The notes beneath the pieces were generated by a model. The model searched no databases. It was not told where the DNA came from and saw only the letters and a program-made list of their open reading frames with translations. A stretch of 64,000 nucleotides of DNA from the NCBI GenBank assembly GCA_001779915.1, contig MFEJ01000023.1, positions 6,165 through 70,164 of the forward strand, in the 5' to 3' direction. This DNA comes from Candidatus Doudnabacteria bacterium RIFCSPHIGHO2_01_FULL_45_18 (GTDB lineage: Bacteria > Patescibacteriota > Doudnabacteria > UBA920 > O2-02-FULL-48-8). The position numbers and the translations under genes were made by a program. How positions within the stretch are numbered: the stretch's first letter is position 1; every line of letters begins with the position of its first letter. Shown here in pieces: positions 4,793 through 60,928 of the stretch.

Positions 4793-5191
4793 TCAGTAAA
4801 GCAAAGATCGGAAGTCCTCTACTCCATGCGGACGCTTATAGATGGTCAAATCCTCACCTTCGGGATAAGGACGAACTGTTCCCACTACCACATATAAGCA
4901 ATCGAGGCCGGACCTCCATCGGGATATTCCTGTCTGTTGGTGAAGCGTGATTCCGGGTGCGTCCCACTCAATCTCTTCGACTCGAAACACTCTCGGTCGC
5001 TTGAGCCGACCCATCCGCGAGCCGGAAGCCACCCAGACCCGACTGTCCGGAAACGGCTTGAGTCTATTGAAAGGAATCTTGTGGTTAGCGCGCTTGCAAG
5101 CTATGTCCCTATACTCAAAGTGACCATTGTATACGATGCGCCAGAGCCAAGGATACTCCTTCTCCCACTTTGCCCATTCTGAATATTCCAT
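4793..5191 (-). CDS. hypothetical protein (Trp-rich N-terminus); own terminator; no recognisable domain
   Basis: 132-aa ORF with a downstream terminator and moderately elevated GC; member of a three-gene minus-strand cluster between uvrA and uvrC. Confidence 0.4.
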   Translation of the reverse strand: MEYSEWAKWEKEYPWLWRIVYNGHFEYRDIACKRANHKIPFNRLKPFPDSRVWVASGSRMGRLKRPRVFRVEEIEWDAPGITLHQQTGISRWRSGLDCLYVVVGTVRPYPEGEDLTIYKRPHGVEDFRSLLY

Positions 5192-5306: not shown

Positions 5307-5337
5307 GCATGGAGCATTTTCTGCGCGGCCGAGCAAG
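5307..5337. repeat. 31-bp direct repeat copy A (TTTTCTGCGCGGCCGAGCAAGATTGGACTCA)
   Basis: Matches 5875..5905 with one mismatch (26 bp perfect). A GC-rich repeat in AT-rich intergenic DNA, bracketing gene 5352..5840. Confidence 0.8.
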
Positions 5338-5351
5338 ATTGGACTCACTTG

Positions 5352-5840
5352 CTATTCTAGCAAATTCATTTTCGCGGAAAAAATGCTGATATCACTTTTC
5401 AACTTCAGTTCTTCAATCAAATCTCTGATGTCTTGTGAGATTTCAAATGGACTTAAAAAACAACTCTCTTTGATTTGAGTATAGCCATTCCTGACCAAGA
5501 AGCGTCGGAACATATCACGGGCATTGTGTTTCTCTTCCGGGATATCAAAAATTATCAAAGTCGAAAAGCCGTCCGTCCTTGTTTTCTTCGTAACTGCCTT
5601 GCTTCTTAAAAACTTAGCTTTCTTTGTAATCACAAATACATGGCCATTCGCTGTCTTGGTTTTTTTCACTAAACCATGTTTTTCAAATCTTTTAAGCTTC
5701 TTAAGGTACCCTGACCGAGTTAAATTTATTCCATTCATCTGACCGTACGACTTGAAAACCAATCCCTCAGGTTCCACTTTGCTGATCATCTTAAATAATT
5801 CCCAGGTCAATCTTGCCGCTGCTCTTCTTGAGCTCATCAT
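5352..5840 (-). CDS. winged-helix DNA-binding protein with C-terminal Cas2-like (PaaX_C-like) domain
   Basis: The N-terminal GINLTRSGYLKKLKRFEKHGLV segment is wHTH-like. The C-terminal IIFDIPEEKHNARDMFRRFLVRNGYTQIKESCFLSPF matches the Cas2/PaaX_C pattern. A paralog lies at 53929..54495. Confidence 0.55.
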   Translation of the reverse strand: MMSSRRAAARLTWELFKMISKVEPEGLVFKSYGQMNGINLTRSGYLKKLKRFEKHGLVKKTKTANGHVFVITKKAKFLRSKAVTKKTRTDGFSTLIIFDIPEEKHNARDMFRRFLVRNGYTQIKESCFLSPFEISQDIRDLIEELKLKSDISIFSAKMNLLE

Positions 5841-5874
5841 AATATTTGATTTTAATGATATCTATAGTGTATAC

Positions 5875-5905
5875 TTTTTTGCGCGGCCGAGCAAGATTGG
5901 ACTCA
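5875..5905. repeat. 31-bp direct repeat copy B
   Basis: TTTTTTGCGCGGCCGAGCAAGATTGGACTCA; partner of 5307..5337. Confidence 0.8.
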
Positions 5906-6269: not shown

Positions 6270-6411
6270 GTTCCCTCCTTAGACGTTACTCTTTGAAGAA
6301 AGTATAATACTTCCAGGCGAAAATCGCTAGCGTTTGCTCATGACTAAAGTACTGAGCATGCTACTGAGCAAAGTAAGTACCTATCTCTAGAGATATCTCT
6401 ATACCATTCCT

Positions 6412-8256
6412 ATGAATAAAACCGTCTCGCAAAAACTTAAAAGCCTCCCCCAGAAACCCGGCGTGTATGTTTTTAAAGACGCCAAAGGGTTGGTTCTTTA
6501 TGTGGGCAAGGCGGTGAAATTAAAAAACCGGGTGTCTTCGTATTTCAAAAAAACCGGTGGGGACAACCGCGGCCCCAGAATCCAATTAATGATTTCCCAG
6601 ATCAAGGATCTGGATTATACGGTTTGCGACAATGAGCTCGAAAGTCTGATCCTAGAAAATAACTTTATCAAACAACTCAAGCCCAAATACAACGTCATGC
6701 TGCAGGACGATAAAAACTACCTGTTTCTGAAGATCAATATTAAAGACGAAATTCCGACCATTGGATACGAAAGAAAAATCCTGGATAAATCCGCTCGCTA
6801 CTTCGGCCCGTACACTTCTTCCGTAGCCATCAAAGACACCTTGCGCTTGGTAAGGAAAATTTTTCCATATTGTGCCAATGCCAAGGTTTCCCAGAAACCC
6901 TGTTTTTACTACCACATTGGCAAATGCCCGGGCGTTTGCTTTGGCAAAATCACGCTGGAAGAATACAGAAATAACTACATCAAACCGATTATGCAGTTTT
7001 TAGAAGGTCACCGATCCGAAATTCTCAAAGACTTGCAAGCTCAAATGCGAATTTTTGCCACCCATAAAAAATTCGAAAAAGCGGCAAAAATTCGCGACCA
7101 GATTTTTGCTCTTAATCGCATGCTGGAACGGCAAAAATTAGTGTATCCGAAAAAAATTGACCAAGATGTGTTCTCGATTTTTCAAGATAGGGTGACTTGT
7201 ATCAATTTGTTCATCATCCGAGAAGGCAAAATGATTCAAAAAGAAAACTTTATCCTGGAAAACACCAAACAGCTCTCTCCTGCGGAAATTTTAGAAAACT
7301 TTTTGCCGCGCTACTATCTGGAAGCCAGCAATTGGCCTAAGAAAATTTTGCTACCTGTGGAAATTGATTTCGAACCATTGCGAGGAGTCCGGTCAGATGA
7401 CCGGACGACGAAGCAATCTTACGACAGATCGCCACGCGCCTTCGGCGCTCGCGATGGGCATATTAAAATCGTTATCCCGACCCGAGGCACTAAACTACAG
7501 CTCATGAAACTGGGCGAAAAGAATGCTCAACAGTACTTAGAAGCCCAAGGCGACAAACATTTGCTTGAGGAAGCGCGCCTCTTGTCTTCGCTGAAAGAAC
7601 TCCAGCGCGTGCTGGATTTGCCTGCGCTTCCCGGAAGAATTGAAGCTTATGATATTTCCAACATCCAAGGCACCAATCCGGTCGGATCCATGATTGTCTT
7701 TGATTTCGCAAGGCCAAAAAAATCCGATTACCGCAAATTTAAAATCAAACGCCGGACCGTGTCCGCCGAAGGCTTGCCGAAGGCGGATGACTTTGCCATG
7801 ATGCGGGAAATGCTCGACCGGAGATTCAAAAACGGTTGGTCTAGGCCGGATTTGATCTTAATTGATGGCGGCAAAGGGCAGCTTTCCAGCGCAGTCAGTG
7901 TTCTGAAACAAAATAAGCTAAATATCCCAATTATTGGTCTGGCGAAAAGGCTTGAGGAGATTTTCCTGCCCGCAAAAAAACATCCGATTATGTTGCGCGA
8001 TAATTCCATTGCCCTGTTCCTCCTCCAAAGGATCCGTGATGAAGCGCACCGGTTTGCAGTCAAATACCATCGCCAACTTCGATCAAAAACATCACTCACT
8101 TCGGTTCTGGATCAAATCAGCGGCATTGGGGAAGGGAGAAAGAAACAATTGTTACAAAAATTTGGTTCCCCACGCCTTGTTCGCGAAGCTTCGATCACTG
8201 ACCTGGCCGCGATTGTAGGCAAAACTCTTGCGGAAAAAATCAAAGCCAGCCTGTAA
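6412..8256 (+). CDS. uvrC: excinuclease ABC subunit C, carrying an in-frame repeat-element insertion
   Basis: N-terminal GIY-YIG motif (GVYVFKDAKGLVLYVGKA); UvrC homology region and C-terminal HhH; 614 aa. Confidence 0.9.
   Translation: MNKTVSQKLKSLPQKPGVYVFKDAKGLVLYVGKAVKLKNRVSSYFKKTGGDNRGPRIQLMISQIKDLDYTVCDNELESLILENNFIKQLKPKYNVMLQDDKNYLFLKINIKDEIPTIGYERKILDKSARYFGPYTSSVAIKDTLRLVRKIFPYCANAKVSQKPCFYYHIGKCPGVCFGKITLEEYRNNYIKPIMQFLEGHRSEILKDLQAQMRIFATHKKFEKAAKIRDQIFALNRMLERQKLVYPKKIDQDVFSIFQDRVTCINLFIIREGKMIQKENFILENTKQLSPAEILENFLPRYYLEASNWPKKILLPVEIDFEPLRGVRSDDRTTKQSYDRSPRAFGARDGHIKIVIPTRGTKLQLMKLGEKNAQQYLEAQGDKHLLEEARLLSSLKELQRVLDLPALPGRIEAYDISNIQGTNPVGSMIVFDFARPKKSDYRKFKIKRRTVSAEGLPKADDFAMMREMLDRRFKNGWSRPDLILIDGGKGQLSSAVSVLKQNKLNIPIIGLAKRLEEIFLPAKKHPIMLRDNSIALFLLQRIRDEAHRFAVKYHRQLRSKTSLTSVLDQISGIGEGRKKQLLQKFGSPRLVREASITDLAAIVGKTLAEKIKASL
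7365..7447 (+). repeat. family A palindromic element, copy 1 (in-frame inside uvrC)
   Basis: CCATTGCGAGGAG...GACGAAGCAATC...GCGCCTTCGGCGCTCGCGATGG. Translated as PLRGVRSDDRTTKQSYDRSPRAFGARDG inside the UvrC ORF. Confidence 0.85.
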
Positions 8257-15560: not shown

Positions 15561-15751
15561 CTGCCCACTCTTGATTTTTTAAAAAATCAGGAATACAATG
15601 AATATGAGAGAGAAGTGGGGTTTCTGCCCAATGAAACAAACACTGATTATCAAACAAATAGTCCAAAATAACAGCATAAGGATCAACCTGCAAAAGGGCT
15701 AAGTTTTGGTCACACGCGAGTGTGATTTTCGTTTCTTTAGGAGGAACAATC

Positions 15752-16063: not shown

Positions 16064-16130
16064 GTTTGGGGTTCTCTTTTTGATTTCGTTTTGCAACCTT
16101 TTGCACGACCGTGCAAAAGGTTGTACATAA

Positions 16131-19199: not shown

Positions 19200-19324
19200 C
19201 CATGGTCCATTTTTTTGCTAAAATGGCAAAGCTTTACAAATTAACTCAATATTCGTTCCACCTTGGGCGGGACGATAGTCCGCCAAAGGCGGATCCGCCT
19301 TTGGCGGAAAAGGAACCCCTTTCT

Positions 19325-34293: not shown

Positions 34294-34390
34294 AGCTTCG
34301 GCGGGCAGGCAAAATAAAAAGTACTGAGCATGCTCAGTAGCAACCTCAGGAGATGCCTCCTGAGATAAACACTTGCTAAAACAAGTGTTT

Positions 34391-38943: not shown

Positions 38944-41900
38944 TTATTTCTTGGCTTTTCGCTTTTTATCTGATTTGTCTTCGGCAAATTCCAGAACTTT
39001 TTCATCCAAGCGATCCGTGGTCGCCATTTCCTTAAGCTCCCCGGCGGTGTCAGTCTCGGCAGACAATTTTTCACCAATCAGTTCTACATTTAAACAAAGC
39101 GATTGCAGTTCTTTGACCAAAACTCGGAACGATTCCGGGACATTCGGTTTTTTAATCGGCTCGTCTTTAACAATTGATTCATAGGTTTTGGCCCGTCCGA
39201 CGACGTCGTCGGATTTGATGGTCAGCATTTCCTGCAACGTGTGCGCGGCACCATAACCTTCCAAGGCCCAAACTTCCATTTCGCCAAACCGCTGGCCGCC
39301 AAACTGGGCTTTCCCGCCCAAAGGCTGCTGGGTGATCAAAGAATAAGGACCAGTGGAACGAGCGTGCATTTTATCATCAACCAAGTGATGCAGTTTTAAC
39401 ATATAAATAATGCCCACCGTGATTTTCGAGCTAAAGGCCGCGCCGGTCTTGCCATCATACATCGTGACCTTACCGTCTTCGGGAAACCCCGCTTTCTTAA
39501 GTTCCTGTTTAATCACTTCTTCCGGCACCCCGTCGAGTGCTGGCGAAGCGACTTTGTAACCAAGTTTTTTGGCAGCCAAACCCAAATGCGTTTCCAAAAT
39601 CTGACCAATGTTCATGCGACTAGCTACTCCCAAAGGATTTAAAATCAGATCCACCGGGGTCCCATCTTGCATAAACGGCATGTTCTCCACTGGGATAACT
39701 TGGGAGATCACGCCCTTGTTGCCGTGTCGGCCAGCCATTTTGTCGCCAACTTGAATTTTACGAAGCACGGCCACGGAAACCTGAATGGACTTAATCACGC
39801 CCGAAGGCAGTTTGTCTCCCGCTTCACGGGAAAATTCGCGAATGTTCACGACTTTACCATACTCGCCATGCGGCAGAGTCAGCGAAGTGTCTTTCACGTC
39901 CCGGGACTTTTCTCCGAAAATCACGCGCAATAATTTTTCTTCGGCCGTCAGATCAGTTTCACCTTTCGGTGTAATTTTGCCAACCAAAATATCTCCGGCC
40001 TTAATCTGCGCCCCGATCCGGATCACACCGTTCTCGTCCAAGTCCTTCAATTTTTCTTCACCAACATTCGGAATATCACGGGTGATAATTTCCGGGCCCA
40101 GTTTCGTATCGCGCAGATCGACTTTAAAATCTTCAATATGAATCGACGAGTAACGATCTTCTTCCACCACCCGAGATGAAATTAAAATGGCATCTTCGTA
40201 GTTGCCGCCCTCCCAAGACATAAATGCCACCAACATGTTTTGGCCCAAAGCCAATTCGCCTTGTTCAATAGCCGCGCCATCGGCGATGGGTTGGCCGGCT
40301 TTAATTGCTTGTCCTTTCACAACTGTGGGATGCTGGTTAATGGAAGTCGAGGTATTGGAACGGATAAATTTTTGCAATAAATATTCTTTTTTCTTGCCAC
40401 CCTTGGACTCGCCAAGCACAATTTTATCGCCAGTCACGCTTAAAACCACACTGTCACTTTCCGCAATCACAACCTGGCCGGAATCATAAGCCGCCTTGGC
40501 TTCCACCCCGGTGCCGACGACCGGCGAATCGGGTTTAATGCAAGACACGGCCTGACGTTGCATGTTGGAACCCATCAACGCGCGGTTCGCGTCGTCGTGC
40601 TCCAAGAAAGGAATCAGGGAAGTGGTGACGGAAATAATTTGTTTGGGTGAAACTTCCACATAATCAATTTCCGAAGTTTCCGTGATGGAAGGCTCGCCAT
40701 GGACGCGCACGGAAGCCCGCGGTTCGGTAAAAAATTCTTTGTCATCCACGTCAATCGTGGCCTGGGCAATCACGGCAAACTGCTCTTCATAAGCGTCTAG
40801 GTAAACAATTTCGTTAGTCACCTGGGAGCGGGCATGAGGAACCTTTTTCACCTTGCGATAAGGAGTTTCAATAAATCCAAAATCATTGATCCGAGCATAG
40901 CTGGCCAAGTGCGCCACCAGACCGATGTTGGGGCCTTCTGGCGTGGTAATCGGGCAAAGCCGGCCATAGTGGGAACGATGTACGTCACGAACTTCAAACC
41001 CGGCGCGTTCGCGTGACAGTCCGCCCGGACCCATAGCCGAAAGCCTTCGCTTGTGTTCCAGTTCCGCCAACGGATTAGTCTGATCCATAAACTGGGACAG
41101 CTGGGAAGAAGAGAAAAATTCCTGAATCACGGCTACGATCGGGCGCACATGAATCAGTTGCGCTGGTGTCACTGTCTCCATGTCAGCCAAACTCATCCGG
41201 TCCTTGGCAATCCGGCTCATCCGGGCCAGCCCAATGCGAAATTTGCTTTGAATCAGCTCCCCCACAGCCCTGACACGTCGGTTAGACAGATGATCAATAT
41301 CATCCCAAGTCCCTTGGGAATTATTAAGCTGAATGACTTCGCGGATAATGTCGGTTAAATCCTGTTTGGTTAAAATCCGATCCGCGCGGTCGTTGATTTT
41401 TAGTCTTTGATTAAGTTTATAGCGGCCGACTTCGGAAAGATCATAGCGGTCCGCGTGAAAAAACATAGCTTCAATTAAAGATCTGGCATTGTCCACGGTG
41501 GCTAAATCTCCCGGCCGGATTCGTTTATAAACTTCCTTAAAACCTTCGTCTGCGGTTTTGGACGGGTCCTTTTCCAAAGTATTTTGGATGTAGCGCATAT
41601 CCGGATTGGTGTCCACATCCACAAAGGCCGCCAAAATTTCCTCGTCTGATCCAAATTTAAAGACACGCATAAGGGCCGTGATAGGAATCCGGCGCTTGCG
41701 GTCAATCTTCACACTGATAATGCCGTTTAAATCGGTTTCCACTTCCAGCCACGCGCCGCGGTTAGGAATAATTTTCGCGCCATACCAATTCCGGCCACGC
41801 ACTGTTTCACCGGAAAAAAACACACCTGGGGATTTGACCAGTTGCGAGACGACAACGCGCTCGACGCCATTAATCACAAACGTGCCGCGCGGCGTCATCA

Positions 41901-45621: not shown

Positions 45622-45821
45622 ATGATTTAATTATATAACTAATTATATAATTATCTATATAATTAATAAATACTGAGTAATCTCCTGCGGCACCACTTTT
45701 TTCTGGAAATTTGCCGCTGTCCGAGCATGATAAATCCGGTTAGATTTGTCCGTTCATGCGAGTCCGGCAAATTTCCGACTTTTTTCCGCCTCTTTTTTCT
45801 AGAAAAAAGAGGCTAAAGAAA

Positions 45822-50841: not shown

Positions 50842-53366
50842 ATTTCTGTCATCTCCGCCCAATTAAGGCCGGCTTTGGCTGCCACCACAATTGGCACTTT
50901 TAATTTATAGACTGATTCCATGATATATCGAAGCTTCGGCGCAATTTTTTTCGCTTCATCTTGATCTACTTCAAAGACTAATTCATCGTGGACAGATAAA
51001 ATCATGTTAGCTTCTGGGTACTTCCTCTCAATTTCAATCATGGCCATCTTCATAATATCCGCGGCTAAGGATTGCAGCGGCATATTCACGGCCGCGCGCT
51101 CGGCGCCACCACGAACCGCAAAATTTGAAGAGTTAATTTCCGGAAAATATCGGATCCGACCCAAAGGATTTCTGATAAACCCATCTTTATGCGCCGAATC
51201 TTTCATTTTATCGATAAATTCTTTCAATCTTGGAAAGGCTTCATAGTATTTCTGGATATATTCCTGCGCTTCACCGCGTTCCATCTCGGATCGTTCGGAT
51301 AATCCAAACGCCGAAACACCATAGAGAATGCTAAAATTTATGGTTTTAGCATCGCGCCTTTGGTTCGGCGTGATTTTATCTTCTTTCACGCCGAAAATTT
51401 TCGCCGCAGTGGCGGAATGAAAATCTTCGCCGGATTTAAATATGCGCATCATCTCTTTATCTTGGGACATGGAGGCCGCAATGCGAAGTTCAATCTGTGA
51501 ATAATCCAGTGAGAGCAAAGCCTTGCCTTGTTCTGCCACAAACGCCTTCCGAACTTCGTTTCCCAGATCCGAACGGATGGGAATATTCTGCAAATTAGGA
51601 TTCAGCGACGACAATCGGCCGGTCGCGGCTATAGTTTGGTTATAAGTTGTATGAATCCGGCCGTCATCAGGAAAAACTAATTCTGGCAAAGCATCTACAT
51701 AAGTGGATTTAAGCTTGGTTAATTCCCGGTATTCGAAAATTGAATCAATGATTGGGTGTAGGCCGCGTAATTTTTCCAATTGTTCCGCTGCCGTGGATAA
51801 TTCTTTAGTTTTGCCAGTTTTTTTTAGATTATCCGTCGGGATTTTTAACTTTTCAAACAAAATTTCCCGCAGTTGAATCGGTGAGGCGATATTAAATTTA
51901 CTCTTGGCTTGCTTGTGAATCTCTTTCGTCAATTTTGTGATACGAGTTTCAAGCTTCAAGCTTAAAGCTTTTAGCCAGGCTTTATCGAGCTTAATCCCGC
52001 GCGCTTCCATTTTGATCAGCACGGCAAGCAGCGGCATTTCAATATCTTCAAAAATCTGGGTGAGTTTCTTTTCTTTCAATTCCGAGCCAATGCTGTGATA
52101 GAGGCGAAACACCGAAGCCGCGTCTTTGCCGTCCAGCAAATAATGGCGGCGACCCGGGTCAGCCAGAAACATGGCAATCTGCGTATCAAATGACAGTGGC
52201 GTTAACTCAATTCCTGCTTTTCGCAAATCGGAATAATTAACTTTCAAATCGTGGCCAATTTTTTGGATATCTTCATCTTCTAACACTCCTTTGATGCGAG
52301 TAGGTGTTGTAAATTTATAACTGTGTTCCCCGCTTGTCGCCACCGACACCCCTGACGCATCCGTAAAAATCGCTAAAGCTTTTTTATCTGACAGTGATTT
52401 AATCAATTTGGGCAGATGATCTTCATCCACAATTTCCACAGGTGATATCTTTTCGGCCTTCTTTTCAGCCTTGGCTTCCGCTTCTTGGCTCAATTTTGGC
52501 AATCTAGCAATGAGGGCGCGAATGCCAAGGGCATGCAGCAGTTCCGTAACCTTGTTTTTTTCATAATCACCAATTTCAGTATCTTTAAAATCAAAGTCTA
52601 AATGATCCTTCTGATCAATCGTAGCCAGTTTCTGGGACAGATAAGCTTTGGCTTTGCCGGCAACTAATTTTTTGAGCGTGCCGTCTTTAATTTTTTTTGA
52701 TCCTTTATCTGCAGCCTCATATACCCCATCCAAACTGCCAAAGGTCTTCATCAACTCCAGTGCGCCCTTCTCCCCAATCCCTGGCACGCCAGGAATATTA
52801 TCCGAGGTATCCCCCCGAATCGCTTTATAATCCACCCACTGACTCGGATGCAAACCGTAGATTTCTACCATTTTGTCCGCATCAAAAATTTGAATATCGG
52901 AAAAGCCGATTTTAAATCGATAAACTTGCGTATGGTTATCAATCAACTGCAATAAATCCAAATCCCCGGTCACGATGATGTTCAAAACATCTTTCGGAGT
53001 TTTATGGCAAATAATTCCCAGTAAATCATCAGCTTCAAAACCGGCTTTTTCATAAATTGGCATATTCAAAGCTTTGAGAATTTCTTTCAGTTTCGGTAGC
53101 TGAACCATCATGGCCTCATCTGGCGCTTTTCTGGTGGCTTTATAATCGGCGGACAATTTATCACGAAAAGTCGGACCCTTTACATCAAACGTCACCAGCG
53201 CGTGCGTGGGCTTAATATCTGCTAAGGCTTTCAGAAACATGGATAAAAATCCAAAAATCGCGCCGGTTGGAAACCCACCCGGCCCGGTCATGTTGGGCAG
53301 GGCATGATAAGCGCGATGAAACAGCGCATGCCCATCAATTAAGAGTAATTTTTTCTTAAAATCCAT
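50838..53366 (-). CDS. polA: DNA polymerase I
   Basis: 5'-3' exonuclease N-terminal domain; polymerase motifs A, B and C; 842 aa. Confidence 0.9.
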   Translation of the reverse strand: MDFKKKLLLIDGHALFHRAYHALPNMTGPGGFPTGAIFGFLSMFLKALADIKPTHALVTFDVKGPTFRDKLSADYKATRKAPDEAMMVQLPKLKEILKALNMPIYEKAGFEADDLLGIICHKTPKDVLNIIVTGDLDLLQLIDNHTQVYRFKIGFSDIQIFDADKMVEIYGLHPSQWVDYKAIRGDTSDNIPGVPGIGEKGALELMKTFGSLDGVYEAADKGSKKIKDGTLKKLVAGKAKAYLSQKLATIDQKDHLDFDFKDTEIGDYEKNKVTELLHALGIRALIARLPKLSQEAEAKAEKKAEKISPVEIVDEDHLPKLIKSLSDKKALAIFTDASGVSVATSGEHSYKFTTPTRIKGVLEDEDIQKIGHDLKVNYSDLRKAGIELTPLSFDTQIAMFLADPGRRHYLLDGKDAASVFRLYHSIGSELKEKKLTQIFEDIEMPLLAVLIKMEARGIKLDKAWLKALSLKLETRITKLTKEIHKQAKSKFNIASPIQLREILFEKLKIPTDNLKKTGKTKELSTAAEQLEKLRGLHPIIDSIFEYRELTKLKSTYVDALPELVFPDDGRIHTTYNQTIAATGRLSSLNPNLQNIPIRSDLGNEVRKAFVAEQGKALLSLDYSQIELRIAASMSQDKEMMRIFKSGEDFHSATAAKIFGVKEDKITPNQRRDAKTINFSILYGVSAFGLSERSEMERGEAQEYIQKYYEAFPRLKEFIDKMKDSAHKDGFIRNPLGRIRYFPEINSSNFAVRGGAERAAVNMPLQSLAADIMKMAMIEIERKYPEANMILSVHDELVFEVDQDEAKKIAPKLRYIMESVYKLKVPIVVAAKAGLNWAEMTEI

Positions 53367-53839
53367 TATCTTAATTTTACCTCTATTCTCTTATCCACAT
53401 GATGTCCATTAATTTTATCAGCAGTATTTATCCAAACTTGTTTAGGTACTGCTTTATAGACTCTCCGAGGACTTTCTTGTATAAAATCAGTAACGGGTCT
53501 TGTTGGTTTATTTTTTCGTCCATATTGATACTTTAAGATGCGTTCAATTTCTTGTTTATCTATAATCATGGACGCTTCTGCTTGGATATAAACCCCACGA
53601 CCGGTTCCTTCCTTCGCCGTAGAATCGTAGATTGCTAAAAAGACGTTTTTATTACTGGCAATATTTTTTGAATGCTGCGAGTACTGATCGGACACCCAGA
53701 AAAAATTATATTCCTCGTCGAACGAAGAGTAAACCGGTGTATTCCAAGGTTCACCATTTGGACTCACTGTCGCGATAGTGATATACAAAATCTTATTTAT
53801 AATTTCTTTAGCCTGTACACTATAGTCTTCCATACCCAA
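53366..53839 (-). CDS. pyridoxamine 5'-phosphate oxidase-family FMN-binding protein
   Basis: ILYITIATVSPNGEPWNTPV split-barrel motif. Confidence 0.6.
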   Translation of the reverse strand: MGMEDYSVQAKEIINKILYITIATVSPNGEPWNTPVYSSFDEEYNFFWVSDQYSQHSKNIASNKNVFLAIYDSTAKEGTGRGVYIQAEASMIIDKQEIERILKYQYGRKNKPTRPVTDFIQESPRRVYKAVPKQVWINTADKINGHHVDKRIEVKLR

Positions 53840-53878
53840 ATCATACCAAAAAATCGCCTCTTTATCGAGCCCTTAGAC

Positions 53879-53919
53879 TTGACAATTATTACCGACGTTA
53901 TAATATTAACTATAGTTAA
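53879..53919 (+). promoter_or_regulatory. promoter (TTGACA ... TATAAT) with an overlapping palindromic operator TTAACTATAGTTAA
   Basis: -35 at 53879-53884, -10 at 53899-53904, palindrome at 53906-53919, immediately upstream of the wHTH regulator gene. Confidence 0.45.
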
Positions 53920-53928
53920 GTTTATAAC

Positions 53929-54495
53929 GTGCCACGAAAACCAAACGAACACTTATCTGTTTATCTTCTAAAGCTTGTGGGACTGGGAAGCTTGTTTTTG
54001 TTAGTTTCAATTTTATCTCCACAACTGCCCTATTTGGTAATCAAAGCCCTATTAAAGAAACGGTTCGGGGCTAAGTATAACAATAAACAAATTGGACATT
54101 CTATTCGATATCTTAAACGAAAAAAATTTATAGCTCTTGAAAATAAATCCGGTAAGATACAGATGGTCCTGACTAAGCTTGGGTTGAAACATTTACAAAA
54201 TGCTGACCTTGATATGATCAAAATTGCTCCTCATGCCTGGGATGCCAAGTGGCGAATAGTTATGTTTGATATCCCTGAAGAACATAAACCAGCTCGGCAT
54301 GTCTTTCGCAGGAAACTTAAAGAGTTGGGATTTGTTCATTTCCAAAGAAGCGTCTTTTTACTCCCATTCAAGTGTGAAAAAGAAATATACGAACTGGCTG
54401 AGCATCTTTCAATCAGTTCTTATGTCCACATATTATCCGCAGATCGCTTTCCAAACGATAAATCGCTTCTGAAAAGATGCCAAATCACCCACTGA
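53929..54495 (+). CDS. winged-helix + Cas2-like (PaaX_C-like) protein, paralog of 5352..5840
   Basis: KWRIVMFDIPEEHKPARHVFRRKLKELGFVHFQRSVFLLPF aligns with the paralog's IIFDIPEEKHNARDMFRRFLVRNGYTQIKESCFLSPF; non-ATG start (GTG) likely. Confidence 0.5.
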   Translation: MPRKPNEHLSVYLLKLVGLGSLFLLVSILSPQLPYLVIKALLKKRFGAKYNNKQIGHSIRYLKRKKFIALENKSGKIQMVLTKLGLKHLQNADLDMIKIAPHAWDAKWRIVMFDIPEEHKPARHVFRRKLKELGFVHFQRSVFLLPFKCEKEIYELAEHLSISSYVHILSADRFPNDKSLLKRCQITH

Positions 54496-54582
54496 TAATA
54501 ATGTTAACGATAGTGAAATTTATTATCATCTCAAAAATCATATAATAAAACCGCCTTTTGGGCGATTCAGTTAATACGTATC

Positions 54583-54596
54583 TAACTACGTAGTTA
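54583..54596. repeat. palindrome TAACTACGTAGTTA, related to the operator-like TTAACTATAGTTAA upstream of the same gene
   Basis: Shares the half-site TAACTA..TAGTTA with 53906-53919. Confidence 0.5.
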
Positions 54597-54597
54597 A

Positions 54598-54798
54598 TTA
54601 CAGACTTAACTCCGGAGCTACCTCCTGAGTTATTTTTTCGTATTCTCGTCCGATATAAATACCGAGTAATAACACCAAGATAAATACTATGACGGCGACA
54701 AGCTTACTATACCAAGTCACTTTGTTCCATTGGATTTTCATCTTAATTTGCCCGAAATCCCGGGCCCTTTCTTCGGTCATCCATTTTTTTCTGAACAT
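54598..54798 (-). CDS. hypothetical small membrane protein (overlaps the next ORF; possible frameshift)
   Basis: 66 aa with one TM. Confidence 0.2.
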   Translation of the reverse strand: MFRKKWMTEERARDFGQIKMKIQWNKVTWYSKLVAVIVFILVLLLGIYIGREYEKITQEVAPELSL

Positions 54799-59482: not shown

Positions 59483-60928
59483 ATGATCAAAATAAGTACG
59501 AACAAAACCATTCAGACTGATCTAATCATTCTGCCCTTGTTCGAAAAAGACCAATCACCAATCGCGCTACCACAGGCAGTGCTTTTGGATTTCAAAAATA
59601 CTTTAGGGGCAACCCAAATGGTTTACTCCAATCAAGGCCAGAAGCGGATTTTGCTTGTAGGGCTCGGCCACAAGCAAAAGTTTGGACCCCAAGCCTGGCG
59701 GCAAGCCATACACAGCATCATGTCTTATATCAGAACCTTGGATGTGGCCCAAGCATCATTGGTTCTGCCCAAAGTTTCTAAACTTTCACCAGTGAAGTTC
59801 ATGGAACTGACGGCTTTTGGCGTAATTTTCAGCCACTACCATTTTGACGAATATAAACAAGAAAAAACTCCAAGAAAACTTCAAAGCCTGGAACTAATTA
59901 CCAAAATAAGCGGCAAAAAAATCAATCAGGCCATCGAACACGGCATCATTATCGGCCTGGCCGCCAATGAAGCCCGAAGTCTTGCCAACCATCCAGGCAA
60001 CTTGGTCACCCCAAGCCATTTAGCCAAATACGCGCAGGAGTTAGCGCGAAAATATAAATTCGCCTGTAAAATTTTAGGCCCTGCCGAAATCAAGAAAGAA
60101 AAAATGGGCCTGCTTGCCGGTGTGGCTAAGGGTTCGGATGAACCAGCTAGATTTATAGTGCTCGAATACCTGCCTGCCGGCAGGCAGGCGGAAAATAAAA
60201 AACTTGAACCAATTGTCTTAATCGGCAAGGGGCTGACTTTTGATTCCGGCGGCATATCTATTAAGCCGGCGGATCGCATGGAAGAAATGAAATATGACAT
60301 GTGTGGCGCCGCTGACGTCCTGGCAATTTTTGAAGCCGTCAGTCAACTGAAATTACCAATCCACCTTATTGGTTTAATTCCCTCGACCGAGAACTTAATT
60401 TCTGGCCAAGCCACCAAGCCGGGCGACATTTTAATTTCCAAATCAGGAGTCAGTGTGGAGATTGTTAACACCGATGCCGAAGGCCGCCTGGTGCTGGCGG
60501 ATGCAATTGATTACGCCAGAGCGCACTTTCAACCAAAGCTCATTATTGATTACGCCACCTTAACCGGCGCCGTGCTTGTGGCCTTAGGAGATCAGCTAGC
60601 CGGATTTTTTGCCAATACCAAATCGTATGACGCCGGATTTAAAAAAGCGGCGGCGACAGCTGCGGAAAATTTTTGGCCTCTCCCCATGCCAGAAGAATAT
60701 AAAGAACATATTAAAAGCCAAGTGGCTGATATCCGAAACGTGGGGGAAAAAGGATTGGCCGGAGCAACAGCCGGCGCCATGTTTTTAGAACATTTCATCG
60801 GCACAACCCCTTGGATCCACTTAGATATCGCCGGCACGGCCTGGACCATGCGGCCTAAACCATCGCTGGCGGTTGGGGCCACGGCCTGGGGGGTTTATCT
60901 AACCGTGGACTTTTTGCGCAACCTTTAG
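59483..60928 (+). CDS. pepA: leucyl aminopeptidase (M17)
   Basis: NTDAEGRL motif; 481 aa. Confidence 0.85.
   Translation: MIKISTNKTIQTDLIILPLFEKDQSPIALPQAVLLDFKNTLGATQMVYSNQGQKRILLVGLGHKQKFGPQAWRQAIHSIMSYIRTLDVAQASLVLPKVSKLSPVKFMELTAFGVIFSHYHFDEYKQEKTPRKLQSLELITKISGKKINQAIEHGIIIGLAANEARSLANHPGNLVTPSHLAKYAQELARKYKFACKILGPAEIKKEKMGLLAGVAKGSDEPARFIVLEYLPAGRQAENKKLEPIVLIGKGLTFDSGGISIKPADRMEEMKYDMCGAADVLAIFEAVSQLKLPIHLIGLIPSTENLISGQATKPGDILISKSGVSVEIVNTDAEGRLVLADAIDYARAHFQPKLIIDYATLTGAVLVALGDQLAGFFANTKSYDAGFKKAAATAAENFWPLPMPEEYKEHIKSQVADIRNVGEKGLAGATAGAMFLEHFIGTTPWIHLDIAGTAWTMRPKPSLAVGATAWGVYLTVDFLRNL
60169..60188 (+). repeat. family B palindrome CCTGCCTGCCGGCAGGCAGG in-frame inside pepA
   Basis: Translated LPAGRQA; perfect 20-bp palindrome. 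Confidence 0.7.

What the first reader, a model, noticed from the sequence alone, without database searches (positions are those of the whole stretch)
53879..54596. Second wHTH + Cas2-like paralog, bracketed by related palindromes TTAACTATAGTTAA (at its promoter) and TAACTACGTAGTTA (downstream)
The paralog at 53929..54495 shares the C-terminal FDIPEE...FRR.L...G.....S.FL.PF...LAE.L....Y..ILSA block with gene 5352..5840. Its promoter region carries a perfect 14-bp palindrome overlapping the -10 element, and a near-identical palindrome lies about 660 bp away just past the gene end. Two paralogs, each flanked by a pair of related sequence elements, suggest a family of small autoregulated or mobile cassettes. 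Pairing a winged helix with a Cas2-like nuclease fold is reminiscent of PaaX-type regulators and of Cas2/VapD-type toxins.
Basis: partly seen in the sequence, partly recalled or inferred. Interest (0 to 1): 0.55.

Follow-up and report, generated by a model that had tools for sequence, protein, structure and literature searches.

The report
Self-bracketed mini-PaaX regulator gene cassette
A small DNA-binding protein of ultra-small (CPR) bacteria, wrongly labelled "Cas2" in databases, has its gene bracketed by two copies of its own private 36-bp palindrome, a layout shared by most relatives examined in a large family and apparently not described before.

Summary
The ORF 53929-54495 is real. It is a truncated PaaX-type protein: a winged HTH plus a Cas2-like domain, with no PaaX_C domain (Pfam PaaX_M E=4.5e-23; best fold match E. 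coli PaaX). It is a paralog of 5352-5840.

The promoter palindrome is the core of a 36-bp site (53895-53930) that covers the -10 box, the predicted transcription start and the GTG start codon. Its true twin is a degenerate copy right after the stop codon (54493-54528).

The bracketing is a family trait. 59 of 76 relatives across Patescibacteria have a matching site pair, against 1 of 326 other ORFs in the same loci. Sites are tripartite: a conserved core GCGA|TCGC, an A/T-rich spacer, and locus-specific arms at positions ±10-17. This resembles the E. coli PaaX operator TGATTC-N27-GAATCA. The downstream site tracks the gene's own stop codon whichever way the neighbour points.

Synteny indicates vertical inheritance, not recent mobility. 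No CRISPR array or viral copies were found.

Most likely this is a self-contained autorepressed module with a second operator acting as a loop partner or insulator. The biological role is unknown. I rate it a new variant of a known kind.

The parts
53879..53906 (+). Promoter-like element of the gene: -35 TTGACA (53879-53884), 16-nt spacer, -10 TAATAT (53901-53906). An overlapping TATAAT lies at 53899-53904.
   Evidence: Consensus scan, (10/12 matches). Conserved in ortholog L001. Not experimentally mapped.
53895..53930 (.). Site 1: 36-bp tripartite palindrome ACGTTATAATATTAACTA|TAGTTAAGTTTATAACGT. The dyad is at 53912/53913 and the core ACTA|TAGT at 53909-53916. The site overlaps the -10 box, the predicted transcription start and the first 2 nt of the GTG start codon.
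   Evidence: (I4, 16/18 arm pairs). 32/36 identical to L001 site 1.
53929..54495 (+). Gene for the 188-aa mini-PaaX protein. It has an N-terminal hydrophobic segment (about res 11-29), a winged HTH (recognition helix about 52-64, wing 68-81), a linker helix 83-96 and a Cas2-like beta-alpha-beta-beta-alpha-beta domain 107-183 with invariant FDIPE (D114) and S141.
54493..54528 (.). Site 2: a degenerate copy of site 1, TGATAATAATGTTAACGA|TAGTGAAATTTATTATCA. The dyad is at 54510/54511, 598 bp from the site 1 dyad. The site begins at the TGA stop codon.
   Evidence: D7, I8; 21/26 in register, p~0; 34/36 identical to L001 site 2, with homology to L001 ending at 54528.
53831..54528 (.). Block conserved with the ortholog locus L001 (85.3% over 715 nt). 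It contains the divergent promoter region, site 1, the gene and site 2.
   Evidence: BLASTN. Adjacent polA is only 71.5% identical. The gene between polA and the block is unrelated.
53840..53868 (-). Promoter-like element facing away from the cassette (TCGATA-17-TATGAT with TG), in front of the PNPOx-like gene and polA operon. It lies inside the conserved block but does not overlap site 1.
54569..54632 (.). Non-canonical cluster of p2 core half-sites (TAACT/AGTTA at 54569, 54583, 54592, 54607 and 54628). Status unknown.
   Evidence: (I16). It violates the core rule. It lies in the 3' end of the minus-strand ORF 54598-54798.
54548..54568 (-). Terminator-like hairpin plus T-run for the convergent minus-strand operon (pilB-like gene and others). 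It lies between site 2 and the half-site cluster.
5352..5840 (-). Paralog 1: a 162-aa wHTH plus Cas2-like protein without the hydrophobic N-terminal segment.
5875..5905 (-). Paralog 1 upstream site (31-nt repeat). The palindrome TTGCTCGGCCGCGCAA doubles as the -35 hexamer (TTGCTC, 5889-5894) plus spacer of a promoter whose -10 is TACACT (5866-5871).
   Evidence: The same layout is seen in orthologs L095-L098.
5317..5347 (-). Paralog 1 downstream site: a 30/31 identical direct copy, 4-34 nt past the stop codon and 558 bp from the upstream copy.

Best explanation
The locus is a self-contained regulatory module.

1. The 188-aa protein is a shortened PaaX-type DNA-binding protein. It has a winged helix-turn-helix joined to a Cas2-like domain, which I infer serves as the dimerisation domain by analogy with PaaX. 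It lacks the PaaX C-terminal effector-binding domain.

2. I infer that a dimer recognises a roughly 36-bp tripartite palindrome. The two wHTH domains would read the locus-specific arms at ±10-17 bp from the dyad. A conserved part of the protein near the dimer axis would read the family-wide core ([G/A]C[G/T]A|T[C/A]G[C/T]).

3. One copy of the site (53895-53930) lies over the -10 box, the transcription start and the start codon of the protein's own gene. Binding there should repress transcription, giving negative autoregulation.

4. A second copy (54493-54528) begins at the stop codon. It belongs to the gene, not to the neighbour. Most likely it cooperates with site 1 by bridging a loop of about 600 bp, or it acts as a bound roadblock that insulates the gene from convergent or read-through transcription.

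Shown here: family membership and fold, the paired sites and their architecture, their specificity to this gene family, their anchoring to the gene ends, and overlap with promoter-like elements.

Inferred: that the encoded protein is what binds the sites, that binding represses, and what the second site does. What the module does for the cell is unknown. In a few relatives a third copy sits at a neighbour's promoter, and the paralog-1 clade sits next to DNA-repair genes, so local regulation of neighbours may be an added role.
For: Protein:
- PF20803 PaaX_M, E=4.5e-23.
- AlphaFold pLDDT 85 with a wHTH plus beta-alpha-beta-beta-alpha-beta domain. The top PDB match is E. coli PaaX 8a39, followed by Rv0674, VapD and Cas2.

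Operator geometry:
- The published E. coli PaaX operator is TGATTC(N27)GAATCA, and PaaX represses its own promoter (PMC9493321).
- Here the arms lie at ±10-17 around a core.

Pairing:
- The flank-repeat score is >=14 in 54/76 loci, against 0/76 mismatched-locus controls.
- It is >=14 in 59/76 family genes, against 1/326 other ORFs in the same loci.
- Both window paralogs are bracketed by their own unrelated sites.

Position-specific constraint (61 loci):
- The core is 82-95% dyad-symmetric and 95-98% identical between the two copies.
- The arms are 73-90% symmetric and 79-86% identical.
- The spacer is only 51-60% symmetric.
- Background identity is about 40%.
- The core itself is palindromic, as expected for recognition of double-stranded DNA by a symmetric dimer.

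Arms differ between loci but match within a locus. In the syntenic secY-adk ortholog group both copies change in parallel, e.g. GTTAA to GTGAA (L030, L050, L073).

Purifying selection: window and L001 sites are 32/36 and 34/36 identical while the adjacent DNA cannot be aligned.

Promoter overlap: seen in this window, in 32/43 loci with a detectable promoter, and in the p1 clade, where the site is the -35 hexamer plus spacer.

Site 2 belongs to the cassette:
- It is retained in 78-81% of loci whatever the orientation of either neighbour.
- It is anchored to the gene's own stop codon (median 31 nt, SD 27), not to the next start codon (median 86 nt, SD 130).

No other copies of the sites:
- The window holds only the flanking copies.
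- A metagenome census of the L088 core found only the two flanking copies in that sample.
- Extra copies within ±3 kb occur in 3/59 loci.
Against: - No binding, repression or looping data exist. All function is inferred from position and conservation.
- A regulator whose only detectable sites flank its own gene has no obvious output.
- Spacer positions are not symmetric, yet they are 71-79% identical between the two copies, and direct orientation is favoured (40 loci against 12). A symmetric dimer alone does not explain this. It points to common descent or gene conversion of the copies, or to a process that senses orientation.
- The family keeps the Cas2/VapD catalytic Asp (invariant FDIPE) that canonical PaaX proteins have lost. 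This hints at an activity beyond dimerisation.
- Most members carry a strongly hydrophobic N-terminal segment that a soluble repressor would not need.
- The promoter-overlap statistic has no formal null model. Start codons in the relatives were called mechanically.
- The site census would miss diverged sites.
Confidence: 0.6

Rival explanations
1. Recombination or excision cassette. The two palindromes are substrates rather than operators. The wHTH domains clamp the arms and the Cas2-like dimer, with its catalytic Asp retained, nicks or cuts at the conserved core. The 'site-gene-site' unit could then excise or integrate at a cognate site. Alternatively the sites act as hot spots where other genes are inserted.
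For: - Layout of inverted arms, spacer and conserved core, about 34-36 bp, resembling lox/FRT/dif-type sites (the comparison rests on my own knowledge).
- Direct orientation is favoured, 40 loci against 12.
- The asymmetric spacer is 71-79% identical between copies.
- Asp114 and Ser141 are invariant, as in Cas2/VapD, while the Asp is lost in canonical PaaX.
- Homology between the window and L001 ends exactly at the outer edge of site 2.
- The cassette is 85% identical against 71.5% for adjacent polA.
- In L001 a lipoprotein gene is itself bracketed by site 2 and a third site.
- Unrelated small genes abut the cassette borders in otherwise syntenic regions.
Against: - Several ortholog groups keep synteny on both sides with the same ~70% divergence as the gene, which indicates long vertical inheritance.
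- There are no near-identical multi-copy elements and no tandem arrays.
- No solo or empty sites were seen, and there are no viral copies.
- 12 loci have the copies in inverted orientation, which would invert the gene rather than excise it.
- Orthologous sites are more alike than the two copies within a genome (window against L001), so there has been no recent duplication or conversion there.
- No known recombinase chemistry is associated with the Cas2 fold.
Confidence: 0.12
2. RNA-level elements. The palindromes act as transcript hairpins. The downstream one would be a terminator or 3'-end stabiliser. The upstream one would be a terminator that blocks read-in transcription. Their similarity would reflect duplication, not binding by a shared protein.
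For: - Site 2 sits 15-50 nt past the stop codon, where terminators usually lie.
- The sites would fold as hairpins (mean -11 to -13 kcal/mol against -3.7 for shuffled sequence).
- 17/61 downstream sites are followed by five or more T in 8 nt.
Against: - The centre of the site, which would be the hairpin loop, is the best-conserved and itself palindromic part (95-98% identical between copies, C at ±3 in 238/244 half-sites). Spacer positions, which would be stem, are only 51-60% complementary. This is the opposite of what a hairpin requires.
- Most sites lack a T-tract.
- In this window the predicted transcription start lies inside site 1, so the 5' hairpin would not be transcribed whole.
- Locus-specific arms kept identical at both gene ends are not needed for termination.
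- Other genes in the same genomes lack such pairs (1/326).
Confidence: 0.08
3. Ordinary local transcription factor. The flanking sites exist to control the two neighbouring transcription units, and autoregulation is incidental. An example would be the paralog-1 clade acting as a regulator of nucleotide-excision-repair genes.
For: - The p1 clade lies next to uvrA, uvrB, uvrC, ruvA or polA in 5 of 7 contexts.
- The third site in L001 is at the promoter of the adjacent lipoprotein gene.
- The extra site in L046 lies upstream of a neighbouring 207-aa ORF that I took for an HD-domain protein from its sequence, without scanning it.
- The conserved block in the window includes the promoter region of the divergent polA operon.
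Against: - Paired sites are retained equally when the downstream neighbour is convergent (22/28) or co-directional (40/51).
- Site 2 tracks the gene's own stop codon, not the neighbour's start codon.
- Neighbours are not conserved across the p2 clade.
- In the window, site 1 does not overlap the divergent promoter (27 bp away), and site 2 faces the 3' end of a convergent operon.
Confidence: 0.12
4. Single-chain toxin-antitoxin-like or defence nuclease. The Cas2/VapD-like domain would be an RNase or DNase toxin, held in check and autoregulated through its fused wHTH domain and the flanking sites.
For: - The Cas2/VapD catalytic-type residues are retained.
- VapD and Cas2 are among the top fold matches.
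- There are several divergent paralogs per genome with non-overlapping site specificities.
- The only PADLOC hits are Cas2 models.
Against: - There is no conserved partner gene.
- The family is inherited vertically inside housekeeping gene strings such as secY-adk-map.
- It is absent from viral contigs and has no significant PHROGs hit.
- There is no CRISPR array or cas1 nearby.
- It cannot be tested with these tools.
Confidence: 0.08

Closest known systems
PaaX (GntR-type repressor of phenylacetate catabolism; Pfam PaaX / PaaX_M / PaaX_C; TIGR02277; PDB 8a39, 3l09, 3kfw)
   Same: - N-terminal winged HTH followed by the Cas2-like middle domain (PF20803, E=4.5e-23). PaaX is the best structural match.
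- The operator has short inverted arms far apart. PaaX uses TGATTC-N27-GAATCA and represses its own promoter (PMC9493321).
   Different: - No PaaX_C effector-binding domain, since the protein ends at residue 188.
- TIGR02277 scores 36.6 bits against a 264.55 cut-off.
- No paa genes nearby.
- It keeps the Cas2 catalytic Asp (FDIPE), where E. coli PaaX has LLLSEG and Rv0674 has LIVTSIG.
- The operator has an additional conserved central core and occurs twice, bracketing the gene.
- Most members have a hydrophobic N-terminal segment.
- The family is restricted to Patescibacteria in the loci seen.
Cas2 (CRISPR adaptation protein) and VapD (Cas2-like endoribonuclease toxin)
   Same: - Ferredoxin-like beta-alpha-beta-beta-alpha-beta fold.
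- Sequence motif hhhFD(I/M)P...R..FRK.L...GF...Q.SVF, shared with type II-A Cas2.
- Passes the Pfam and NCBIfam Cas2 cut-offs marginally (25.8 against 23.8 bits; 27.4 against 24.5 bits). This is why NCBI names relatives 'Cas2'.
   Different: - Fused to a wHTH domain.
- No cas1, no CRISPR array in the window and no cas genes in the 13 annotated relatives' loci.
- No VapX-like partner gene.
- The database name 'CRISPR-associated endonuclease Cas2' is very likely a misnomer for this family.
Lambdoid phage immunity regions (cI flanked by OL and OR) and other looping repressors (DeoR, GalR, LacI)
   Same: It works like them in concept. A repressor gene is bracketed by two cognate operators, there are orthogonal specificities among relatives, and a loop of hundreds of bp is plausible. 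This comparison rests on my own knowledge and was not tested.
   Different: - The protein fold is unrelated.
- There is a single tripartite site at each end, not operator triplets.
- No outward lytic promoters have been demonstrated.
- The loop would enclose only the regulator gene.
- Looping itself is not shown.
Insertion sequences with transposase-bound terminal repeats overlapping the transposase promoter, and RAYT genes flanked by their cognate REP palindromes
   Same: A small gene of about 0.65 kb is flanked at its promoter and just past its stop codon by sequences that its own product presumably binds. Each end carries a palindrome, as with RAYT-REP and the IS200/IS605 ends. This comparison rests on my own knowledge.
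   Different: - No HUH/Tyr, DDE or other transposase motifs.
- The sites are not dispersed (only two copies).
- There are no multi-copy identical elements.
- Stable synteny is seen over about 30% nucleotide divergence.
- The orientation of the copies is mixed.

Membership tests
PaaX family (canonical, TIGR02277 equivalog) | N-terminal winged HTH plus Cas2-like middle domain (PaaX_M, PF20803) | tested here: met
   PF20803 at 81.6 bits against a cut-off of 24. The AF2 model shows a wHTH plus beta-alpha-beta-beta-alpha-beta domain and has 8a39 as its top hit.
PaaX family (canonical, TIGR02277 equivalog) | C-terminal PaaX_C effector (phenylacetyl-CoA) domain and full-length equivalog score | tested here: not met
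   No PF08223 hit. The protein is 188 aa long, against about 300 for PaaX. TIGR02277 scores 36.6 bits against a cut-off of 264.55.
PaaX family (canonical, TIGR02277 equivalog) | Genomic association with paa catabolic genes | tested here: not met
   The neighbours are polA, a PNPOx-like gene and a pilB-like ATPase. Relatives' neighbours are varied housekeeping genes.
PaaX family (canonical, TIGR02277 equivalog) | Binds a long operator with distant inverted arms and represses its own promoter | tested here: inconclusive
   The site geometry is compatible (arms ±10-17, against N27 in PMC9493321), and site 1 overlaps the promoter. Binding has not been measured.
Cas2 (CRISPR-associated) | Cas2 sequence profile and fold with the catalytic Asp at the end of beta-1 | tested here: met
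   PF09827 at 25.8 against 23.8 bits, and TIGR01573 at 27.4 against 24.5 bits, for the target. Paralog 1 is below both cut-offs. D114 is invariant. Fold matches include 5xvn, 5zyf and 6qxt.
Cas2 (CRISPR-associated) | Encoded next to cas1 and a CRISPR array; stand-alone protein of about 90-110 aa | tested here: not met
   No CRISPR-like array in 64 kb. No cas genes among the neighbours here or in the 13 annotated relatives' loci. The domain is fused to a wHTH.
VapD-type toxin-antitoxin | Adjacent cognate antitoxin gene (VapX-like) forming a two-gene operon | tested here: not met
   No conserved small partner ORF. Neighbours differ between loci.
VapD-type toxin-antitoxin | Nuclease activity or toxicity | not testable with these tools
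   The only evidence is residue conservation (D114, S141).
Insertion sequence / transposon | Several near-identical copies, variable insertion sites, terminal inverted repeats and target-site duplications | tested here: not met
   The two window paralogs are only 26% identical overall and have unrelated sites. Synteny is conserved in ortholog groups. The copies are mostly direct repeats, not inverted. There are no relatives on viral contigs.
REP/RAYT-type association | The cognate palindrome is dispersed in many copies around the genome | tested here: not met
   There are only the two flanking copies in the 64-kb window for each paralog. Only the two flanking copies of the L088 core occur in its whole metagenome sample.
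Integron gene cassette | Promoterless ORF followed by attC, arrayed next to an integrase and attI | tested here: not met
   The gene has its own promoter-like element. There are no tandem arrays. No integrase is present among the neighbours.

The most novel reading that the evidence does not exclude
The Cas2-like domain is catalytically or architecturally active on the conserved core of the flanking 36-bp palindromic repeats. That would make these units site-specific 'repeat-gene-repeat' modules. They would either be excisable or invertible cassettes run by a Cas2-fold enzyme, or membrane-anchored tethers of their own locus through the hydrophobic N-terminus. In the first case this would be a Cas2 relative with intrinsic, sequence-specific recognition of roughly 36-bp partly palindromic direct repeats. 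That would bear directly on how Cas2 came to work on CRISPR repeats.
Probability: 0.07. Interest if true: 0.9.

Novelty: new variant of a known kind. Interest (0 to 1): 0.62.

Why it matters
- CPR/Patescibacteria have very few recognisable regulators. This family is large (1,526 cluster representatives at 50% identity with E<=1e-10) and occurs several times per genome. Public databases mostly label it 'CRISPR-associated endonuclease Cas2', which is almost certainly wrong.

- Most members carry their own private tripartite palindrome at both ends of the gene. That gives dozens of protein-site pairs ready for binding assays, a natural set of orthogonal repressor-operator pairs, and a clear experimental handle in organisms that cannot be cultured alone.

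- It also raises an open question. It is unclear why a regulator would bracket only itself, keep a nuclease-type Asp that PaaX lost, and often carry a membrane-like helix.

- If the second site proves to be a loop partner or insulator, this would be a compact, portable design for an insulated, autoregulated gene. If the Cas2-like domain acts on the repeats, it would bear on the origin of CRISPR adaptation.

Tried and rejected
1. Rejected: it is not in register with the five canonical sites of the window and L001, it violates the core rule, and it lies outside the conserved block.

2. Terminator reading of the sites. Rejected: most sites lack T-tracts, and the would-be 'loop' is the most conserved part while the would-be 'stem' spacer is not complementary.

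3. 'The gene always lies antisense to its neighbours'. This held for the first seven loci, but over 87 loci the orientations are mixed.

4. Tandem arrays or CRISPR-like arrays. None were found.

5. A dispersed regulon or REP-like spread of the site. None was seen in the window or in the metagenome census of the L088 core. The three hits in other samples have no family gene nearby and look like chance.

6. A conserved partner ORF between paralog 1 and uvrA. The small ORFs are unrelated.

7. A phage or defence origin. There are no viral relatives, no significant PHROGs hit, and only Cas2 models in PADLOC.

8. Literature. No paper contained both PaaX and 'Cas2-like', and none described this family. 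The library does not cover subscription journals, so absence there is not proof.

9. The weak direct repeat D3 (53838-53862 against 54535-54559) was considered part of the cassette. I dropped it because its order relative to the sites is inconsistent.
Full report
**What is at the coordinates.**

The ORF 53929-54495 (+, GTG start, 188 aa) is present. The 88%-identical ortholog in locus L001 has an ATG at the aligned position, which supports the start codon. TTAACTATAGTTAA lies at 53906-53919 and TAACTACGTAGTTA at 54583-54596. These are the only two occurrences of TAACTA-N0-12-TAGTTA in the window. A sigma70-like match, TTGACA-16-TAATAT, spans 53879-53906.

Perfect palindromes of 14 bp or longer are common in this window (20 observed against 5.35 expected under a first-order Markov model). 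A 14-mer palindrome alone is therefore weak evidence.

The 14-mer is the centre of a 36-bp imperfect palindrome, 53895-53930: ACGTTATAATATTAACTA|TAGTTAAGTTTATAACGT, with 16/18 arm pairs (I4). It covers the -10 box, the predicted transcription start and the first two bases of the start codon.

**What the protein is.**

- Pfam gives PaaX_M ('PaaX central Cas2-like domain', PF20803) at E=4.5e-23 for the target and 1.3e-15 for paralog 5352-5840. The target also passes the Cas2 gathering score (25.8 against 23.8 bits).
- NCBIfam gives Cas2 TIGR01573 at 27.4 against 24.5 bits. It gives the PaaX equivalog TIGR02277 at only 36.6 against 264.55 bits.
- The two paralogs share 40% identity over the C-terminal 67 residues (E=9e-15). 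An HMM of the family finds only these two in the window.
- An AlphaFold model built on 23 homologs (pLDDT 85) shows three helices and a beta-hairpin wing (res 7-81), a linker helix, and a beta-alpha-beta-beta-alpha-beta domain (107-183).
- The best PDB match is E. coli PaaX (8a39, E=1e-5). Next come Rv0674, VapD and type II-A Cas2.
- There is no PaaX_C domain.
- Canonical PaaX proteins have LLLSEG (E. coli) or LIVTSIG (Rv0674) where this family has an invariant FDIPE, so the Cas2/VapD catalytic Asp is kept here.

The protein is a truncated PaaX-type protein, not a canonical PaaX and not a CRISPR Cas2. There is no CRISPR-like array in the window. There are no cas genes among the neighbours here or in the 13 annotated loci of relatives.

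**The real bracket.**

In L001 the promoter palindrome is conserved and a near-identical copy lies right after the stop codon. The window has the same element at 54493-54528 (TGATAATAATGTTAACGA|TAGTGAAATTTATTATCA). It starts at the TGA stop codon, and its dyad is 598 bp from the site 1 dyad. It matches site 1 in 21/26 positions in register (p~0 against shuffles).

BLASTN of L001 against the window shows three things:
- a 715-nt block at 85.3% identity (window 53831-54528) that ends exactly at the outer edge of this downstream palindrome;
- adjacent polA at only 71.5% identity;
- an unrelated gene between polA and the block.

Orthologous sites are 32/36 (site 1) and 34/36 (site 2) identical. 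Both are therefore under purifying selection.

It has two extra central bp, no arms, and lies in DNA not shared with L001. It does sit in the only cluster of three or more TAACT/AGTTA half-sites in the window (4 within 45 nt; 3 of 300 simulations reach that). I leave that cluster unexplained.

**A family-wide architecture.**

I fetched 80 further loci from GTDB species genomes, nearly all Patescibacteria and often several per genome.

| Test | Family genes | Control |
|---|---|---|
| Best ungapped direct match, 150 nt upstream of the start against 150 nt downstream of the stop, score >=14 | 54/76 | 0/76 mismatched-locus pairs |
| Same flanks, either orientation, score >=14 | 59/76 (78%) | 1/326 other ORFs in the same loci |

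Sixty-one loci have two clearly palindromic copies. Folding the 122 sites on their dyads gives a tripartite profile:

| Positions from dyad | Element | Dyad symmetry | Identity between the two copies |
|---|---|---|---|
| ±1-4 | Conserved core GCGA\|TCGC (C at ±3 in 238/244 half-sites) | 82-95% | 95-98% |
| ±5-9 | A/T-rich spacer | 51-60% | 71-79% |
| ±10-17 | Locus-specific arms | 73-90% | 79-86% |
| ±22 and beyond | Background | 25-37% | about 40% |

The dyads lie at a median of -43 from the start codon and +35 from the stop codon, and are 645 bp apart (range 575-866).

The window's site 1 fits this profile, with core ACTA|TAGT and arms ACGTTATAA/TTATAACGT.

Paralog 1 fits too, with an unrelated site. 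It is a 31-nt repeat (30/31 identical) at 5875-5905 and 5317-5347. Its palindrome TTGCTCGGCCGCGCAA is the -35 hexamer plus spacer of a TTGCTC-N17-TACACT promoter. Three of four p1-clade orthologs show the same pair.

**Why I read the sites as operators of the encoded protein.**

- The arms differ from locus to locus but agree within a locus. The sites are specific to this gene family. The only locus-specific candidate binder is the gene's own product.
- The centre of the site is itself palindromic and is the most constrained part. That is expected for a two-fold symmetric dimer on double-stranded DNA and is the opposite of a hairpin loop.
- The published E. coli PaaX operator is TGATTC(N27)GAATCA, and PaaX represses its own promoter (PMC9493321). 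The long palindromes with distant arms fit that type.
- In the window, site 1 covers the -10 box and the start of transcription. In the p1 clade the site is the -35 hexamer plus spacer. Across relatives the repeat overlaps the best promoter-like match in 32 of 43 loci, and many genes look leaderless. I have no formal null model for that overlap.
- In the syntenic secY-adk ortholog group both copies change in parallel, for example GTTAA to GTGAA (L030, L050, L073).

**What the second site is for.**

It belongs to the gene, not to the neighbour. Paired sites are kept in 40/51 loci with a co-directional downstream neighbour and in 22/28 with a convergent one. The corresponding figures are 45/57 and 17/21 for the two upstream orientations. 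The site tracks the gene's own stop codon (median 31 nt, SD 27), not the next start codon (median 86 nt, SD 130).

It is not a typical intrinsic terminator. Only 17/61 downstream sites have five or more T in the following 8 nt.

Cognate sites are essentially confined to the gene ends:
- each window paralog has only its two flanking copies in 64 kb;
- the 20-nt core of the L088 site occurs in its JGI sample only at the two flanking positions, and the three hits in other samples have no family gene nearby;
- extra copies within ±3 kb occur in 3 of 59 loci.

I therefore favour a self-contained module. Site 1 provides autorepression. Site 2 is either a loop partner (a loop of about 600 bp) or a bound roadblock or insulator. 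This step is inference.

**Mobility.**

For mobility:
- homology with L001 breaks at the site edge, and the cassette is better conserved than polA;
- unrelated genes abut both cassettes;
- in L001 a lipoprotein gene is bracketed by site 2 and a third site;
- direct orientation of the copies is favoured (40 direct, 12 inverted, 13 ties);
- the non-symmetric spacer is still 71-79% identical between copies.

Against mobility:
- several ortholog groups keep synteny on both sides with the same ~70% identity as the gene (L050/L072/L073/L080/L036 between secY and adk; L013/L021/L024/L026; L059/L060);
- there are no tandem arrays and no near-identical multi-copy elements;
- there are no relatives in 2.9 million viral contigs;
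- the 12 loci with inverted copies do not fit an excision model.

I rate recent mobility as unlikely. I keep a recombination or cleavage role for the sites as a minority rival.

**Other leads.**

- The p1 clade lies next to uvrA, uvrB, uvrC, ruvA or polA in 5 of 7 contexts. The L001 third site is at a neighbour's promoter, and the L046 extra site lies upstream of a neighbouring gene. Some members probably also regulate neighbours.
- Twenty of 23 aligned members, including the target but not paralog 1, have a strongly hydrophobic segment at about residues 11-33 (Kyte-Doolittle 19-mer average 1.55-2.48). AlphaFold models it with low confidence. It may be a membrane anchor.

**Known or new.**

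The domain family is in Pfam, and relatives are named 'Cas2' or 'PaaX' by annotation pipelines. I found no paper describing this truncated CPR family or genes bracketed by their own cognate palindromes. That library lacks many subscription journals.

The family is large: 1,526 representatives at 50% identity with E<=1e-10.

I classify it as a new variant of a known kind, a PaaX-type regulator. The biological role is unresolved. I give a small probability of something more unusual, namely a Cas2-fold protein acting on its flanking repeats.

Noticed in passing
window 5317-5905 with 1818-4658 (uvrA) and 6412-8256 (uvrC); loci L095, L096, L097, L099: The paralog-1 clade is repeatedly next to DNA-repair genes. 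The contexts are uvrA/uvrC (window), polA-rpsT-[gene]-uvrB (L095), [gene]-uvrA (L096, L099) and uvrB-[gene]-ruvA (L097), which is 5 of 7 contexts. Its operator TTGCTCG-N2-CGAGCAA doubles as the -35 hexamer plus spacer of its promoter. It may be a damage-response regulator in bacteria of this group.
   Followed up: partly
window 54569-54632: This is the only cluster of three or more TAACT/AGTTA half-sites in the 64-kb window (5 in 64 nt). It lies at the 3' end of the minus-strand pilB-like operon, just upstream of that operon's terminator hairpin (54568-54548). It is not a canonical family site. It could be a decayed site or a set of auxiliary low-affinity sites.
   Followed up: partly
window 53959-54015 (protein residues about 11-29) and homologs in alignment A1: A conserved, strongly hydrophobic N-terminal segment with a G-x-G motif and an invariant Pro31 occurs in 20 of 23 members. 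It is absent from paralog 1. It could be a membrane anchor or a re-entrant hairpin on a DNA-binding protein.
   Followed up: partly
window 16093-16122: The 30-nt palindrome CAACCTTTTGCACGACCGTGCAAAAGGTTG lies between convergent ORFs. Its layout is like the paralog-1 promoter-operator (TTGCAC-N17-TACATA), but there is no family gene nearby. It could be a solo or remnant site, or just a bidirectional terminator.
   Followed up: partly
L001 6565-7245: In the closest relative, a lipoprotein-like gene (6631-7197, minus strand) is bracketed by site 2 of the regulator and a third near-identical site at its own promoter (7207-7245). The site and about 16 nt of right flank are duplicated.
   Followed up: partly
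window 53366-53839 against L001 5373-5957; window 4793-5191 against L096 965-1393 and L099 3748-4197: The small genes wedged between the cassettes and the conserved neighbours (polA, uvrA) are unrelated between genomes. The cassette borders coincide with gene-content variation.
   Followed up: partly
L050 869-6195, L073 1105-5819 and their orthologs: In one ortholog group (Nomurabacteria and Saccharibacteria MAGs) the family gene, with both sites, sits co-directionally between secY and adk. It therefore interrupts the otherwise near-universal secY-adk-map gene string.
   Followed up: partly
window, whole: There is an excess of perfect palindromes of 14 bp or longer (20 against 5.35 expected). 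Long examples are at 19279-19308 (30 bp), 45788-45813 (26 bp), 60169-60188 (20 bp), 15572-15589, 34322-34339 and 39196-39213.
   Followed up: no
window 6382-6401: Two overlapping 14-bp palindromes (TATCTCTAGAGATATCTCTA) lie immediately upstream of the uvrC start codon (6412). They may be an operator for another factor.
   Followed up: no
public annotations of homologs P0007, P0014, P0017, P0033, P0038, P0055, P0246: NCBI names these proteins 'CRISPR-associated endonuclease Cas2', and JGI names others 'PaaX' or 'phenylacetic acid degradation operon negative regulatory protein'. Neither name fits the evidence. This could inflate counts of orphan cas2 genes in CPR genomes.
   Followed up: yes
loci L008, L023, L026, L040, L046, L061, L066 and others: Many family genes have a -10-like hexamer ending about 7 nt before the start codon, which suggests leaderless mRNAs. 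In those loci the site centre lies about 38-47 bp upstream of the predicted transcription start and overlaps the -35 hexamer.
   Followed up: no
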